64,000 bases of DNA. Origin: the human T2T-CHM13v2.0 reference genome, Homo sapiens. The notes under the pieces are model-generated. The model was not told where the DNA came from. It searched no databases and was given only the letters and a program-made list of their open reading frames with translations. The position numbers were made by a program, and so were the translations under genes. Below are positions 6,478-63,056 of this stretch, piece by piece. Positions within the stretch are counted from its first letter, which is position 1; each line of letters starts with the position of its first letter. Location of the stretch: assembly GCF_009914755.1 (NCBI RefSeq), contig NC_060939.1, one strand, 5' to 3'.

Positions 6478-6710
6478 ATTCCTTTCTCCTGTGACTCATT
6501 ATCAACATTTCTTCTTTGTTGCTTTGCATGTATTTCTAGGAGACAATTTCTTGGCTCATTGACTTTAGAGTTGCAGTCCCAGGTCATTATAGCTTTATTA
6601 GGTCACTATCCTCCAGTGCAGTTAATTAGCTATTTTTCCATTTATATAAAGATTTTAAATACCTCTGTGTGCTTGAGATGATAGTCTGTAAATAGCTACA
6701 AGGTAAGGAT
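6478..6710 (+). promoter_or_regulatory. Candidate OR4F15 promoter/first non-coding exon (module copy 1)
   Basis: GACTCATTA and GTCCCAGGTCATTA (homeodomain TAATGA next to O/E-like site), TTAATTAG, TATATAAA, donor AAG|GTAAGG at 6703 (alternative CAG|GTAACA at 6774); homologous to three other copies. Confidence 0.6.
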
Positions 6711-7726
6711 GGCATGAAGTTCACAATGGGAGCATGATAAACTAGATAAACTTCAGCTGCAAGAAAGACTCAGGTAACAGTTTGTTAGCCTGGGGCAGAA
6801 AGAAACAGGTGGTTGTGGTGGGGAAATGGTGATCACAGGAAAGGCATAAATATGAATTACCTGGAAAGGGAGAACAAGAATTAACCTTAGTTTTTAACTA
6901 AAACTTAGAAATGACTTGGAGATCCAAAGGTGCAAAGGAGTACACTACAGAGTCTGGAGTCTGCACTGTGGCTTGGTTCAGGGCAGGACTAGGATGCATG
7001 TAAAGTTGTTTGTGGTATCCAGAGACTTTTGGGGAAATCTATTAGCCCTGAAAATGAAGACAAACATGCTTGTTGTCTTCCTAACAAGCTTGTTGTTTAC
7101 TTCTATTTCTAGAGAAGACCCAAGATATAAAAAGGAGAAAGTTCATCAGATACTAGTCATAAGTGAAGCTTTAAAAGATGAAATTCCAGTTTCATGGACT
7201 CAAGATGGAGAAGGAATAATTGAAAACATTTGGAAGAAAAACATCTGGGTTTTTAACTCACCCTGAACTAAAAAAATGTAGTGTCTGTTAAAATTAGTTG
7301 ATTGAAGAATGGAGGAAAAAAAAGTAGGAAACTAAATGTGTAATGTTTAACAACCTGCAATAAATCCTCCTATACTTGTTCATGTTTTCAAAACATTTAT
7401 GATAAATTTTTAGGTCTATATAATGAGAAGTTTAGGTAGTGAAATGGAGTGATTAGACAAAAGTGACAAGATAAAGAGGTAGAAGATGGATCCTTTGAGG
7501 AAGGCTAAAGCAAATTGAGGTGAATAAAACTAGAGGGTACAGATGAGTGATCTTTATTTGCTTTTACCAACATCAAGGATATTAAGCACTTATCTGACAG
7601 AGTACCTGACAACTTCTTTATATCCACAGGGGATGAATTAAGTGGATATCAGCTTAGTTGAAAGGATGGAGATTTCCTTTTTGTAAGAGAACATTTGGAC
7701 TTTTATGTTAATGAGAAGCAGGACAC

Positions 7727-8027
7727 AGCCGGGCACGGTGGCTCATCACCTGTAATCCCAGCACTTTGGGAGGCCGAGGTGGACAGATCAGTTGAGTGCA
7801 GGAGTTCGAGACCAGCCTGGCCAACATGGTGAAACCTCATCTCTATTAAAAATACAAAAATTAGCCAGATGTGGTGGTGCATGAATGTAAATCCAGCTAC
7901 TCGGGAGGCTGAGGCTACAGAATCGCTTAAACCTAGGAGGTGGAGGTTGCAGTGAACCGAGATTGTGCCATGGCAATCCAGCCTGGGTGACAGAGTGAGA
8001 ATCTGTCTCAAAAAAAAAAAAAAAAAA
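7727..8027 (+). mobile_element. AluS element
   Basis: GCCGGGCACGGTGGCTCA...dimer with A-rich linker and poly(A) tail. Confidence 0.97.
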
Positions 8028-9719
8028 TGCATGATACCTGTTCATAATAGCTAAGAAATATATTTTTGAACCTTGAAAACTGAGGGAAAAACTGACATTT
8101 CCTGGATGGGTAAATAAAGGAACTGGTTCAGAACGTAGTCTCAGATCTTTTCCAGCTCATTGAGTTTATTGATTGAGAATAATGAACATCTTTTTAAGAA
8201 AATTTTAAAATGTAGTGATCATAAATCTATTCTAAGAAGTTGCCCAATTCCGATCCCATGCAATTCCAGTTAGGTGAATTTAAATTTAAATGATTCCATC
8301 AAATGCTAGACTATCTGTATTTGTCACACTATCACAATTGTTTAGTGTAAATAGATGATAACTATAATTCATGTCATTGTAATTATTGAGAGCAATAGCC
8401 AGGCCAGAACTAGGGAACTCAAAGCAGGATATCTCCTAATGGCAATGGCCTTAGGAGAGAACACATTCTTTCCATGGAGGGTTTGGGATGCATCAAAATA
8501 ATCAAACACTTATAACCCAATGTGTCATCCTGGAAGCCATTCAGCGACCCAAAGATGAATACTTAATACTTAAGAAATGTGAAGACAAGAGGACAAAAGC
8601 TGAGTAAATTTTTAGATCTGCTGCCATTTGCTCTTTGTATTATTTTCTCATCTTTGCTTTATGAGGGATTGTGAAGTAGGTAAATTTTGTGTTTAGCTCA
8701 ATTTATTCTTTTACTCAGTTCTGGCTTCATTCCTGCGACTCTTATTCTCCTACCCAGCCCTTCAGCTATTACTCTGTCTCCTGAAGCAACCAGCCCTTGA
8801 TAATCCTTCTTGGGTAATGACTCAGCTTAAAAATGGATCACTTATTTCTTCATCATTAAGAGTCTCATGTCTTGCATGCATGCGATCTCCACTAAGGAAA
8901 GCCAGCTGTTATTTTTTTTGTCTGCAATGCTCAATGGAGTATCCTTCCTGTAGCAATGTAAGCAAAACAAGGGACTTTAGTATCTTAACCTAAAGGAAAA
9001 CAACTCTAATGCTGCAGTTTTTTAACCTAAAAGAAAGCAGCTCTAATGTTAAAGGAAATATTTTGGGGCACTGGAGCTTTTAATATTGCACATCTACACA
9101 AACTCCTACTTTGCTATTTCTTCCCCTTTATCACAATTTTCCACTTAATGAACCATCTTAGTCTCCTGTTGAATTCAATAATTCAATTTCCCCTTTTCTT
9201 TTTTTCTCATCTCTTTCCTTTCTGATTTAAAAAATGTATTTAACTTAAAAAAATCCACCTTGCCCTCTGTGTAGGCTCTGTCTTTGAGTAAACTTTACAC
9301 AGAATCTCATATTTTTTGAATGACCTAATAACCCTCTTTTAGTTTTGTCTTTTCCTTGTAAATTCATTAAAAGTGAAGTTTACCACTATTTCTTTTGTTA
9401 TTCTGAGTTGTCAGTTTTTGCTATTCAAATTTCAGTTTGGAGGAAGCACCACATATATTTCTACTTCACAGCATATTTTTATTATTCCTACTTCATGGAA
9501 GCCTTAATAGCATCTTTGCTAGAAGGCTGTTTTTTCTCTTAGTGATCAGAAGGATTTATTTTTGTCTTTGTTACCCATTTCTAGACAAGTGTTTGTCAGT
9601 TTATAGTTCAGGTCATGAGGATTTAGATGTAAATCACAGAATGGTTTGCACAACTCTTACTTAAAATTGCTCTGATAACCTTAGATTCTCATTTTATCTA
9701 TGTTCAATTTCTTATTAAA

Positions 9720-60639: not shown

Positions 60640-60781
60640 CTTTTTCAAGTTTTTCTGATAGAGATGGGGTCTTGCTATGTTGCCCAGGCTGGTCTTATCT
60701 TGAACTCCTGGGCTCAAGTGATTCTCCTGCCTTGGCCTTTCAAAGTGTTGGGACTGTAGGTGTTAGCCCCTGCGCCTGGCC
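60640..60781 (-). mobile_element. FLAM_C-type Alu monomer
   Basis: GAGATGGGGTCTTGCTATGTTGCCCAGGCTGG...CTGGGCTCAAG...GCGCCTGGCC. Confidence 0.85.
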
Positions 60782-62759
60782 TCTAATAGTTGTCTTCATT
60801 AAAGCCTCATGGGGACTCTATTTTTTTGTGTGTGTGGGTTGTTTATTTTGTGTTTGTGAAGTCCGGTAAATTCAGTTGCATCTGCCTTGATGTGGTCATA
60901 CTATAACACATTTTTTCTGGATAAAGATAAGCCCTTTAACCATTAGATTCAATGTTTTCTTCATTTCAGAAAAGTTTTCTTTTATCTTTGAATTTTTTAA
61001 CCAGATATTGTGAGCTCTTTCACACTAATTTCTCATTTGTTGGACCTGACTTTAATGTTACATTTCACCTTCTTGTGTTTTCTATTTCGTTTTGCTCAGG
61101 ATATATTTAAGCCTGTCATTTATATTCTTATCTGTGTTTTTAGCAGCATTATTCTCTCCACTTCCCACTTTTTCTCCTGCTTTTATTGATCTTCATTTCT
61201 TTCATGGTTGTCTTTACTCATTACATCCTGAATTTTGCCAGATTATTTTTTATCACTTTATTTTGTATTTATTTTCAATTATGTCTTCTAAATATCATTT
61301 CAGAGAGAAAACATTTTAGAGAAGGCATATTTTTAAAAAACAGAAAATTTGATCCTATTTTTTACTGCTTCATGGTATAATTTGTATGTTCTGTACCTTA
61401 TGTAATTTTCCCTTTTTCTTCTAGTATTTTTATAAAGGTCATCAAGTTTTATTTTTGTAATACAATTATTATAAATAATTATATAATATTATTAGTCTTT
61501 GAATATTCTAGATACTTGTGAAAGGATATTGTGGAGGAGGAGCTGGGGGTAGTAAGTATGATGGAAGGCAGACGAGTTTTGGAATCTTGTCTCCAAAACA
61601 CTCTCATCTGTTAGAATGACTCCTTGGCTATAGGATTGACTATGGCTTAGAGTGGATTCATAGTTGTTAATTTGGTCATGTGACTTGTGACTTATCCTTT
61701 TCTTTTCATAATAGAATGAAAATTGCCATCTGTCTGGCTTCTTCCCCATCTTTTTGCCTTCTTTCATTACACCACACACGTGTCCTAATTATTCCAAAGG
61801 TGATACATTTGCATGTTTCCCTTTAAACTCCTTTCCCTCTGTCACTCTGTGGAGGGTTCACATGCTGCAATATTTCTGTTCCAAGTAAAGATCACAGGTT
61901 TTGATCCTCAGTCCTCAGTATACACACCTCTTTTAGGGATTTCTGGGCTTCTTGACTAGCTCAAGCTCTTCAGAGGCATGCACTTTATCTTGGTGTTCAG
62001 TCTTGACTGGTTTAAACTTTTGATGTCCAGAAGGTTTTCTTCATTTGTTGTTGTGTGGAATTGGAAATATTTTCTAGCTTTTGTAAGGTTGTGGCTCATA
62101 TTTATATTTCTCCTGGTTTGAAAGAAGAGAGAGAAAGAAGTATCTCAAATTGAGACTCTTAGATTGGAAATCTGAATTTATTTACACGATTGAGATTGAT
62201 CTAGAGTTTTATTTTTTCTGCTGTAACTGAAATTTGGATTCAAGATTATATGTGTTTTGTGAATATGTTTGGTAACATTGTGACTTTTCTATAATTTAGG
62301 GAAGTTTGATGTAGGAGAAAGAGAAAAAATTTTTGAGAGAATCCTAAATTCATATATGGCCTAACCTTTTAATATCTATGTAATTTTAGATAATAAATAA
62401 TTTGTTTGAGATTATGTGGCTCTAACAACACCTGCTTCACAGTGTAATTATGAGGATTTCATAGAATTTGTATAGTGAGCGTTAGTTTTGATGTTACTTT
62501 AAACCTCTTTGCCTTATACATTCTATTTTTTCCATGGAATATTATATGATTTCATGTCCACATATTAATCTCATACTTTCAATTACATTTTATGTTTAAA
62601 TTGAATATTATGGTAATCGTTATGTAAATGATTAAAAATTTAAAGGGACAACATTTAATGTTGCTCTGGAATTCACTTTTAGTCATAAAATAAAGATTTA
62701 AAGTATCATCTGTAGACAATGGCAAAAGGCCTTTTTTGTCATAAGAAAATCAAATATGC

Positions 62760-63056
62760 TTTATTTCACCCAATTAACAGTTTCTGGGCTTGGCCATCCC
62801 GGGAAAACCAAAATGACCATAGGCGGTAATTCCCCAGGCCGTGTGATCTCAGTCTGGCATTCTCGGATCTCCAAGGCATCACTTTGGCCACTACCCTCTG
62901 GGGCTGTGATTAGCAGCTCTCTTCCTGTTTTATGCAGCTCTGTGTGTATGTCTGCAGTGATGCCGTACTGGATCTGGTTCATCTTGAGAGAACTATACCT
63001 ATCTGAATTTTTGATGATGCTGTTTTCTTAGTTCCCTTGGCAAAACAGGTAGGTGA
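62760..63056 (+). promoter_or_regulatory. Orphan copy of the OR4F promoter/first-exon module (copy 4)
   Basis: GTAATTCCCCAGGCC...GCATCACTTTGGCCACTACCCTCTGGGGCTGTGATTAGC...donor CAG|GTAGGT at 63049. Confidence 0.5.

What the first reader, a model, noticed from the sequence alone, without database searches (positions are those of the whole stretch)
6478..63056. A ~250-bp non-coding module repeated four times: candidate paralogous OR4F promoter and first exon
Seen: four non-TE segments align. Block A: TTTCTCCTGTGACTCATTATCAACATTT (6483), TTTCTCTAGTGTCTTATTATGAACTTTT (20025), CTCTCCAGGACTCATTACAAGACTTTT (37249). Block B: GACAATTTCTTGGC (6542), GACAATTCCCCTGGCC (37313), GTAATTCCCCAGGCC (62826). 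Block C, 56-58 nt after block B: GGTCACTATCCTCCAGTGCAGTTAATTAGC (6601), GGTCACTGTCCTCTT...TAATTAGC (20152), AGTCAGTATTCTTCAGTGCTGTTAATT (37372), GGCCACTACCCTCTGGGGCTGTGATTAGC (62886). Each is followed 100-165 nt later by a splice donor (GT at 6703, 20280, 37506, 63049). Copies 1-3 lie about 5.9, 2.9 and 5.6 kb upstream of the acceptors of OR4F15, OR4F14P and OR4F13P. Established: OR promoters sit kb upstream of the single coding exon and pair homeodomain (Lhx2; TAATGA/TAATTA) sites with O/E (EBF) sites. Inference: this is the promoter co-duplicated with each gene and conserved while the intervening DNA turned over; block C is a subfamily-specific motif with no factor I can name.
Basis: partly seen in the sequence, partly recalled or inferred. 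Interest (0 to 1): 0.8.

Follow-up and report, generated by a model that had tools for sequence, protein, structure and literature searches.

The report
Shared promoter module of OR4F genes
Each olfactory receptor gene of the OR4F cluster on human chromosome 15 keeps a diverged copy of the same ~270-base upstream piece that carries its likely promoter and short non-coding first exon, which is the ordinary way such gene families duplicate.

Summary
All quoted strings sit at the stated coordinates. Copies 1-3 are alike beyond 300-500 dinucleotide shuffles. Copy 4 is supported against c0, c2 and c3 (0/500 each) but not against c1 (40/500). A fifth copy lies just outside the window, ending at the RNA-seq-supported exon 1 of OR4F6.

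The module is the only single-copy, colinear, same-strand conserved island in the five upstream units, apart from one 3'-flank match. It is not a dispersed repeat at BLAST sensitivity.

It holds an O/E-like site, a TAATTAGC homeodomain core, a TATA-like element and a conserved CAG|GTA donor. It abuts annotated first exons of OR4F6, OR4F15, OR4F13P and OR4F17.

The best reading is a co-duplicated class II OR promoter plus first exon. This is a new member of a known kind.

- OR4F15's annotated junction is 6773->12651, not 6702->12651.
- Copy 4 belongs to the OR4F28P/OR4F3-type segmental duplication (7 genome copies).
- Block C contains the homeodomain core, so a factor can be proposed.
- A weak OR4K2 match argues against strict subfamily specificity.

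Promoter activity and factor binding are inferred, not shown.

The parts
1..187 (+). In-window end of the OR4F6 intron, up to the acceptor AG|187. Its partner, copy c0, lies OUTSIDE the window at -2243..-1954 (L002 7757-8046). c0 contains O/E-like AATTCCCTTGGCC (TCCC core at -2142), TAATTAGC at -2068 and TTTTTATG at -2026. Annotated exon 1 is -1990..-1954, with donor CAG|GT at -1953.
   Evidence: c0: nhmmer E 1.1e-16 with the c1-c3 profile. SW 0/500 against c1-c4. Motif positions. HAVANA exon 1 is 37 nt, tagged RNA_Seq_supported_partial. Acceptor and the hub table.
6478..6702 (+). Copy c1: OR4F15 upstream module. Block A TCATTA at 6496, degenerate O/E-like block B at 6542-6557, TCCCAGGTC at 6577-6585, block C at 6601-6630 with TAATTAGC at 6623-6630, TATATAAAG at 6643-6651. 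The ancestral CAGGTA donor position reads TAGCTA here. A consensus-like AAG|GTAAGG follows at 6702|6703.
   Evidence: cmsearch 6478-6711. An L1 3' end abuts it at about 5960-6420.
6703..6773 (+). Annotated OR4F15 exon 1, with donor CAG|GTAACA at 6773|6774, spliced to 12651.
   Evidence: Hub RefSeq table. HAVANA GRCh38 101812202-101812272, tagged RNA_Seq_supported_partial. Its first 30 nt are homologous to the sequence after the donor in c2.
20019..20279 (+). Copy c2: OR4F14P upstream module. Block A at 20025, block C at 20152 with TAATTAGC at 20177-20184, donor CAG|GTAAAG at 20279|20280. Blocks B and B2 are degenerate.
   Evidence: No exon is annotated here (hub table).
37241..37505 (+). Copy c3: OR4F13P upstream module. 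TCATTA at 37260, AATTCCCCTGGCC at 37316-37328, block C at 37372 with the homeodomain core mutated to TAATTC, TATA at 37426-37436. Annotated exon 37423-37505, donor CAG|GTAAGT at 37505|37506.
   Evidence: Exon from the hub table and the HAVANA processed_transcript.
62759..63048 (+). Copy c4: OR4F28P-type upstream module. AATTCCCCAGGCC at 62828-62840, block C at 62886 with the core TGATTAGC, TTTTATG at 62928, donor CAG|GTAGGT at 63048|63049.
   Evidence: It is 367/371 identical to the segment 7.4 kb upstream of the chr5 OR4F3-type CDS. There are 7 genome copies.
12630..12651 (+). Polypyrimidine tract and acceptor AG|12651 of the OR4F15 coding exon. The equivalents are AG|187 (OR4F6), AG|23221 (OR4F14P) and AG|43122 (OR4F13P).
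   Evidence: and the hub table.

Best explanation
The module is the proximal promoter plus short non-coding first exon of an ancestral OR4F gene, copied with the coding exon at each tandem duplication. It was then kept under constraint while the 2-7.5 kb intron and the intergenic DNA diverged beyond alignment and filled with Alu and L1 elements.

Its order, 5' to 3', is:
1. A TCATTA/TAATGA-type homeodomain core (block A).
2. An O/E (EBF)-like site AATTCCCnnGGCC (block B).
3. A second conserved block, TGGCAnTCCCAGGTC (B2).
4. Block C, ending in the homeodomain core TAATTAGC.
5. A TATA-like element (TATATAA or TTTTTATG).
6. About 35-70 nt of first exon.
7. A CAG|GTA donor that splices to an acceptor 21-37 nt before the ATG.

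Inferred mechanism: as in mouse class II OR promoters, Lhx2/Emx2 and Ebf factors occupy these sites only in the neurons that choose the gene, and transcription starts near the TATA-like element.

In OR4F15 the ancestral donor position is mutated, and the annotated transcript uses a donor 71 nt further on.

Shown here: the homology, its colinearity and uniqueness, and its coincidence with annotated exons. Inferred: promoter activity, which factors bind, and the exact transcription start sites.
For: **Homology**
- SW 0/500 for all pairs among c0-c3, and for c4 against c0, c2 and c3.
- Profile hits to c0 and c4, with nothing else below E 5 in 84 kb.
- No comparable score in 300 random pieces.

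**Only conserved island**
- 379 400-nt tiles cover the five upstream units (57 + 94 + 131, 50 + 47).
- The single-copy, plus-strand, colinear hits are the module tiles and one 3'-flank tile (24178-24577).
- The other hits are multi-copy or non-colinear repeats.

**Not a dispersed repeat**
- c0-c3 match only themselves in the 3.1-Gb genome at E<=10.
- All 7 copies of c4 lie in the same orientation, about 7.4-8.6 kb 5' of the scored part (residue 127 onward) of an OR4F3/28P-type coding match. That is roughly 7-8 kb from the inferred start codon.

**Coincidence with transcripts**
- OR4F6 exon 1 starts 36 nt after TTTTTATG and ends at the conserved donor.
- OR4F13P uses the donor 37505|37506 (hub table).
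- OR4F17 exon 1 (ending ATGAAGAAG|GT) lies 51-120 nt after the matched B2-C blocks, at the same spacing.
- OR4F6 was expressed in 11/12 and OR4F15 in 10/12 human olfactory mucosa samples (file 7).

**Architecture matches published OR promoters**
- O/E and homeodomain sites are enriched (Young 2011, passages).
- EBF sites lie 100-300 bp upstream of human OR start sites (Olender 2016, passages).
- About 300 bp suffices in transgenes, and the O/E and HD sites are needed in M71 (2025 review, passages).
Against: - No start-site mapping (CAGE or 5' RACE) was available. All three HAVANA models are tagged RNA_Seq_supported_partial, so their 5' ends are soft.
- OR4F15's annotated exon begins at 6703, 58-60 nt after the TATA-like element, which is farther than the roughly 30 nt I would expect from recall. 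OR4F17's annotated exon begins on the TTTTATG itself.
- The OR4F13P transcript starts upstream in an L1 fragment and uses the module as an internal exon.
- c2 and c4 have no annotated exon. OR4F13P, OR4F28P and OR4F3 show about zero reads.
- The O/E-like sites need 2 mismatches to the recalled consensus TCCCNNGGGA, and such matches are common.
- TAATTAGC is not enriched in the window: 3 found against 2.9 expected.
- The profile hit to c4 is lost in the 99%-identical chr5 copy.
- An ancient repeat exapted before the duplications cannot be excluded without Dfam or RepeatMasker.
Confidence: 0.8

Rival explanations
1. The module is conserved mainly as a 5'-UTR exon with its splice signals. The real promoter would lie further upstream, and the module would be an internal or alternative exon.
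For: - OR4F13P's RefSeq/HAVANA transcript starts at 36620 in an L1 fragment and enters the module through AG|37423 (hub table).
- The HAVANA 5' ends are 'partial'.
- The donor is the best conserved short block.
Against: - Conservation extends about 200 nt upstream of every annotated exon start, over the O/E-like and homeodomain blocks, where an exon would impose no constraint.
- Upstream of c0 and c1 lie an Alu and an L1, not conserved DNA.
- No other colinear conserved block exists upstream.
Confidence: 0.1
2. The module is an OR-cluster enhancer of the Greek Island type rather than a promoter.
For: It holds both homeodomain and O/E-like motifs, as OR enhancers do (Monahan 2017 passages; review).
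Against: - Greek Islands are marked by juxtaposed Lhx2/Ebf composite motifs. Here the O/E-like block and the TAATTAGC core start 74 nt apart in c0, and their mutated counterparts lie at a similar distance in c3 and c4.
- There is one copy per gene, in gene orientation, ending in a splice donor and abutting first exons.
Confidence: 0.04
3. The module is an ancient interspersed repeat, such as a MIR, L2 or DNA transposon fragment, present by chance or exapted near each gene.
For: - No repeat library could be run.
- BLAST would not see repeat copies diverged by about 50% or more.
Against: - c0-c3 are single-copy at E<=10.
- All copies have the same orientation and a comparable position relative to their gene.
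- There were no hits in about 190 kb of other OR-flanking DNA except the OR4F17/OR4F4 homologues.
Confidence: 0.04
4. The similarity is a chance effect among AT-rich sequences.
For: - Global identity is only 42-56%.
- blastn does not see the module.
- c4 fails under strict scoring.
Against: - 0/500 shuffles reach the score for 9 of the 10 pairs among c0-c4.
- 0 of 300 random genomic pieces reach the module scores.
- Profile E-values are 1e-16 and 2e-6.
- Five of five copies lie colinear with their genes.
Confidence: 0.02

Closest known systems
Mouse class II OR minimal promoters (M71/Olfr151, MOR23), as summarised in the 2025 Chem Senses review (PMC12547500, passages read)
   Same: A region of about 300 bp upstream of a short non-coding first exon. 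It has homeodomain and O/E sites within a few hundred bp of the start site, is AT-rich with a TATA-like element, and is followed by a long intron to a single coding exon.
   Different: Activity and factor dependence are shown there by transgenes and site mutations. Here nothing is tested. The O/E-like sites are imperfect, and the start sites are known only from partial RNA-seq models.
Recently duplicated OR promoters noted by Young et al. 2011 (PMC3247239, passages read)
   Same: OR gene duplications can carry the promoter along, so paralogues share promoter sequence.
   Different: Those are recent duplicates, similar enough to be filtered out as redundant. The OR4F copies are old (69-72% protein identity) and retain only short blocks (mean 55% identity in the core).
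V1R subfamily-conserved promoters (Stewart and Lane 2007, PMC1955453; listing and passages read)
   Same: A chemosensory receptor family with one-gene-per-neuron choice, in which paralogues keep a conserved promoter block upstream of a non-coding exon.
   Different: A different receptor family, tissue and motifs. I read only the title, the start of the abstract and the background passages.
Greek Island OR enhancers (Monahan et al. 2017, PMC5608512, passages read)
   Same: The same two motif classes, homeodomain/Lhx2 and O/E/Ebf.
   Different: The defining composite motif has the two sites side by side. In the module they start about 74 nt apart. The module is also gene-proximal, oriented and exon-bearing.

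Membership tests
Class II odorant receptor proximal promoter with non-coding first exon | Lies at or just upstream of the mapped first exon or start site of an OR gene, on the gene's strand | tested here: met
   OR4F6 exon 1 (-1990..-1954), OR4F15 exon 1 (6703-6773) and OR4F17 exon 1 (L035 about 6129-6182) each start inside or at the 3' end of the module (hub table). For c2 and c4 no exon is annotated. Start sites come from partial RNA-seq models only.
Class II odorant receptor proximal promoter with non-coding first exon | O/E (EBF) site within a few hundred bp upstream of the start site | tested here: inconclusive
   The aligned block B reads AATTCCCnnGGCC in c0, c3 and c4 (3 of 5), 187-218 nt before the donor. 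It has 2 mismatches to TCCCNNGGGA, a consensus recalled from memory. It is degenerate in c1 and c2. No weight matrix was available.
Class II odorant receptor proximal promoter with non-coding first exon | Homeodomain (Lhx2/Emx2-type TAATTA or TAATGA) site near the start site | tested here: met
   TAATTA(G/A)C is at the aligned block C position in c0, c1, c2 and OR4F17 (4 of 6 lineages). It is mutated to TAATTC in c3 and TGATTA in c4. The motif is not enriched in the window as a whole: 3 found against 2.9 expected.
Class II odorant receptor proximal promoter with non-coding first exon | Drives OR-like expression in olfactory sensory neurons, with factors bound when the gene is chosen | not testable with these tools
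   The only evidence is that OR4F6 and OR4F15 are expressed in human olfactory mucosa, in 11/12 and 10/12 samples (Barnes 2020 supplement 7).
Greek Island OR enhancer | Juxtaposed Lhx2/Ebf composite motif | tested here: not met
   The O/E-like block and the homeodomain core start 74 nt apart in c0 and about 75 nt apart at the aligned positions in c3 and c4. The composite matrix itself was not available.
Interspersed repeat (transposable element) | Many dispersed copies independent of gene context | tested here: not met
   c0-c3 match only themselves in the genome at E<=10. c4 has 7 copies, all at the same place in one segmental duplication.

The most novel reading that the evidence does not exclude
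The module may be an ancient promoter cassette shared across the OR4 family, seen in OR4F6/15/14P/13P/28P, in OR4F17/OR4F4 and possibly in OR4K2. Its fixed order and spacing of blocks goes beyond the generic O/E and homeodomain cores. This includes the unassigned GGTCACTnTCC half of block C and the TGGCAnTCCCAGGTC block. That grammar could encode a family-specific property such as epithelial zone or choice probability.
Probability: 0.15. Interest if true: 0.5.

Novelty: new member of a known kind. Interest (0 to 1): 0.3.

Why it matters
The result gives a sequence-level anatomy of the OR4F promoters.
- It predicts unannotated first exons for OR4F14P (donor 20279|20280) and for the OR4F28P/OR4F3-type genes (donor 63048|63049, and its six copies elsewhere). 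HAVANA 2020 lists these genes as single-exon.
- It explains why OR4F15 uses a donor 71 nt downstream of the family's usual one.
- It offers a natural series of intact versus decayed promoter copies, two expressed genes against pseudogenes, for testing which blocks matter.

It does not change the current understanding of OR regulation.

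Tried and rejected
- The repeat finder and sensitive blastn between the five upstream units did not detect the module. 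They found only coding exons, Alu, L1 and microsatellites.
- A whole-unit nhmmer run timed out. I replaced it with 400-nt tiles. In one search two units failed on a file-format ambiguity and were rerun.
Diverged copies elsewhere could therefore be sought only in fetched loci.
Only 7 regions of 10 kb were fetched, so the test of specificity is thin:
  - No hit in 10 kb upstream of three other OR4 genes (L037, L039, L040).
  - No hit in 10 kb upstream of the minus-strand chr14 gene in L038.
  - No hit in 5.4 kb upstream of the OR4G-type gene in L036.
  - No hit in the 1.5-kb flanks of the other OR4 loci.
  - The one exception is the OR4K2 site.
- The OR4K2 match is weak. It scores 18 bits with E 1e-4 by cmsearch, whose calibration is rough. 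nhmmer gives only 6.8 bits against 5.0 for the best of 200 shuffles. SW gives 5-8/500 against c1-c3 and is not significant against c0, c4 and OR4F17. I treat it as suggestive only.
- Motif counts alone carry no signal for TAATTAGC.
- Olender 2016 has no OR4F transcript model in the four supplementary files held.
- A full-text search for OR4F15 found 21 papers, 20 listed. None concerned its promoter, judging by title and the start of the abstract.

Full report

The four segments read exactly as quoted, at the stated coordinates. Block C to the GT is 102, 128, 134 and 163 nt.

The copies are too diverged for exact-seed repeat finding or for sensitive blastn. Global pairwise identity is only 42-56%. 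Against dinucleotide shuffles the local similarity is nevertheless clear:
- Strict scoring: c1-c2, c1-c3 and c2-c3 each exceed 300 of 300 shuffles. c4 does not (175/300, 13/300 and 62/300 shuffles reach it).
- Scoring suited to about 60% identity: all pairs among c0-c3 give 0/500. c4 gives 0/500 against c0, c2 and c3, and 40/500 against c1.
- c0 scored against 300 random pieces of the same 84 kb reaches at most 196, against 239-375 for the modules.

A profile of c1-c3 searched over the window plus 10 kb on each side gives:
- c4 at 62805-63072 (E 2.4e-6);
- nothing else better than E 5.6.

One weakness must be stated. The same profile does not report the chr5 copy of c4, which differs at 4 of 371 positions. 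That single hit is therefore fragile. The pairwise tests support both c4 and the chr5 copy.

**2. What surrounds it?**

The window holds four OR4F coding exons. OR4F28P lies just beyond its end (hub table).

Each module lies on the gene strand, upstream of a coding exon:

| Copy | Gene | Distance from donor to coding exon |
|---|---|---|
| c0 | OR4F6 | 2.1 kb to the acceptor |
| c1 | OR4F15 | 5.9 kb |
| c2 | OR4F14P | 2.9 kb |
| c3 | OR4F13P | 5.6 kb |
| c4 | OR4F28P | 7.4 kb |

Each coding exon is preceded by a polypyrimidine tract and an AG 21-37 nt before the ATG.

I tiled the five upstream units into 379 windows of 400 nt and searched each against the other four units. The only single-copy, plus-strand, colinear matches are the module tiles and one 3'-flank tile (24178-24577 against 44391-44513). 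Everything else is Alu, L1 or other multi-copy or non-colinear repeat. An L1 3' end abuts c1 at about 6420, and an Alu abuts c0 at about -2264.

In the whole 3.1-Gb genome, c0, c1, c2 and c3 match only themselves at E<=10.

c4 has 7 copies: chr15, chr6 and chr5 at 99%, and chr19, chr11, chr3 and chr1 at 96%. Each is in the same orientation, about 7.4-8.6 kb 5' of the scored part (residue 127 onward) of an OR4F3/OR4F28P-type coding match. That is roughly 7-8 kb from the inferred start codon. So c4 belongs to the known subtelomeric OR4F duplication. The segment 7.4 kb upstream of the chr5 gene is 367/371 identical to it.

**3. Anatomy**

A six-lineage alignment and column counts give these near-invariant islands, in order:
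- an O/E-like aA.TCcC.tGgCc block;
- TggcA.TccCAGgTcTcT;
- GtCA.tAt.CT;
- GtGCtg.TAATTAgC;
- a TATA-like Ct.TtTaTg;
- the donor acAGGTA..GTG.AA.

Block A adds a TCATTA core in c1 and c3.

Positions relative to the donor:
- The TAATTA core lies 80-115 nt before the donor in c0, c1, c2 and OR4F17. It is mutated in c3 (TAATTC) and c4 (TGATTA).
- The O/E-like block lies 187-218 nt before the donor in c0, c3 and c4. It is degenerate in c1 and c2.

These assignments rest on consensus forms recalled from memory. The O/E-like sites carry 2 mismatches. TAATTAGC is not enriched in the window (3 found, 2.9 expected). AATTCCCNNGGCC with at most 1 mismatch occurs 3 times against 0.64 expected (3/100 shuffles reach it).

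**4. Transcript evidence**

The HAVANA GTF in supplement 5 of Barnes et al. 2020 (searched, not read through) gives:
- **OR4F6.** Exon 1 is 37 nt. It maps to window -1990..-1954, so it starts 36 nt after TTTTTATG and ends at the conserved CAG|GT.
- **OR4F15.** Exon 1 is 6703-6773, spliced to 12651.
- **OR4F13P.** A 'processed_transcript' has an exon at 37423-37505.
- **OR4F17.** Exon 1 ends in ATGAAGAAG|GT. I located it at L035 about 6129-6182, which is 51-120 nt after the matched B2-C blocks and at family-typical spacing.

The three protein-coding models are tagged RNA_Seq_supported_partial, so donors are supported but 5' ends are soft.

Supplement 7 shows OR4F6 reads in 11/12 and OR4F15 reads in 10/12 olfactory mucosa samples, and about none for OR4F13P, OR4F28P and OR4F3. 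Olender 2016 Table S7 agrees on weak olfactory expression and has no OR4F transcript model in the supplementary files held.

- 37505 is a used donor, but the RefSeq transcript splices it to 37977.
- For OR4F15, position 6703 is the annotated exon start, and the used donor is 6773|6774.
- In c1 the position aligned with the family's CAGGTA reads TAGCTA.
- The first 30 nt of OR4F15 exon 1 are homologous to the sequence after the donor in c2.
- So OR4F15 appears to have shifted to a downstream donor.
- Whether AAG|GTAAGG at 6702|6703 is ever used cannot be told here.

**5. How far does the family reach?**

Profiles that did not include OR4F17 or OR4F4 hit the B2-C blocks upstream of both (E 0.002 and 0.001). 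These two loci are duplicates of each other. SW of the OR4F17 segment gives 0/500 against c3, 4/500 against c4 and 10/500 against c0. It is not significant against c1 and c2.

A sequence-only covariance model of the six lineages gives one further match, of 18 bits with E about 1e-4. It covers the full model length, on the gene strand, about 1 kb upstream of a chr14 gene. I identified that gene as OR4K2 from its 110-nt intron, its acceptor 23 nt before the ATG, and its exon layout. HAVANA's OR4K2 exon 1 starts inside the match.

This match is weak by other measures. nhmmer gives 6.8 bits against 5.0 for the best of 200 shuffles. SW gives 5-8/500 against c1-c3 and is not significant against the other three.

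No match was found in any of the following:
- 10 kb upstream of three other OR4 genes;
- 10 kb upstream of the minus-strand chr14 gene in L038;
- 5.4 kb upstream of the OR4G-type gene;
- the 1.5-kb flanks of the remaining OR4 loci held.

A genome-wide profile search was not possible.

**6. Interpretation**

The module fits the published picture of class II OR promoters:
- O/E and homeodomain sites are the only motifs enriched across OR promoters, and duplications can carry the promoter along (Young 2011, passages).
- EBF sites peak 100-300 bp upstream of human OR start sites (Olender 2016, passages).
- About 300 bp upstream of the start site suffices in transgenes, and the O/E and HD sites are required in M71 (2025 review, passages).
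- Promoters differ from Greek Island enhancers in lacking the juxtaposed composite motif (Monahan 2017, passages).

In the module the two site classes start about 74 nt apart.

I therefore read it as the co-duplicated promoter plus first exon (confidence 0.8). The rivals are:
- an exon and splice module with the promoter elsewhere (0.1);
- an enhancer (0.04);
- an old exapted repeat (0.04);
- chance (0.02).

**7. Novelty**

Promoter homology among OR paralogues and this motif architecture are known. The first exons of OR4F6, OR4F15 and OR4F13P are already annotated.

New here are:
- the explicit five-copy (with OR4F17, six-lineage) alignment;
- the fifth copy;
- the assignment of c4 to the OR4F28P/OR4F3-type duplication, with a predicted unannotated first exon;
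- the donor shift in OR4F15;
- a hint that the cassette predates the OR4F subfamily.

A full-text search for OR4F15 found 21 papers, 20 listed. None concerned its promoter, judging by title and the start of the abstract. This is a sound but ordinary finding.

Noticed in passing
window 36575-36749 and 37421-37423: Exon 1 of the OR4F13P transcript NR_046417 (36620-36649) lies in an antisense L1 3'-end fragment. It splices into the promoter module at AG|37423, so this pseudogene transcript is driven from a repeat rather than from the module.
   Followed up: partly
window 1747-2140, 51500-52300, 56100-56900, 58100-58700: One repeat family has one copy upstream of OR4F15 and three same-strand copies in the OR4F13P-OR4F28P interval. 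Identity is 66-67% over the long blastn matches, with one short 97-nt match at 76%. The family was not identified.
   Followed up: no
window 23297-24496: RefSeq lists a functional 'enhancer' that covers most of the OR4F14P pseudogene coding exon (hub table). I did not examine it.
   Followed up: no
window 24178-24577 vs 44391-44513: A short single-copy paralogous match lies just 3' of the OR4F14P and OR4F13P coding regions (E 1e-5). It is probably a remnant of a shared 3' UTR.
   Followed up: no
L020 287-525 (chr14, upstream of OR4K2): A weak full-length, same-strand match to the module overlaps the start of HAVANA OR4K2 exon 1. cmsearch gives 18 bits, but nhmmer and the shuffle tests are marginal.
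   Followed up: partly
window 62805-63072 vs L034 2275-2641: The nhmmer profile of c1-c3 reports c4 at 21.8 bits but gives no hit at all to the chr5 copy, which differs at 4 of 371 bases. This shows how fragile long, low-density profile hits are.
   Followed up: yes
window 53533-53734: A (TA)n(TG)n compound microsatellite array with a period of about 13-17 nt.
   Followed up: no
window 23242-24177 and 43145-44100: OR4F14P reads through with one in-frame TGA. The OR4F13P match to OR4F15 starts only at residue 23, consistent with both being labelled pseudogenes.
   Followed up: no
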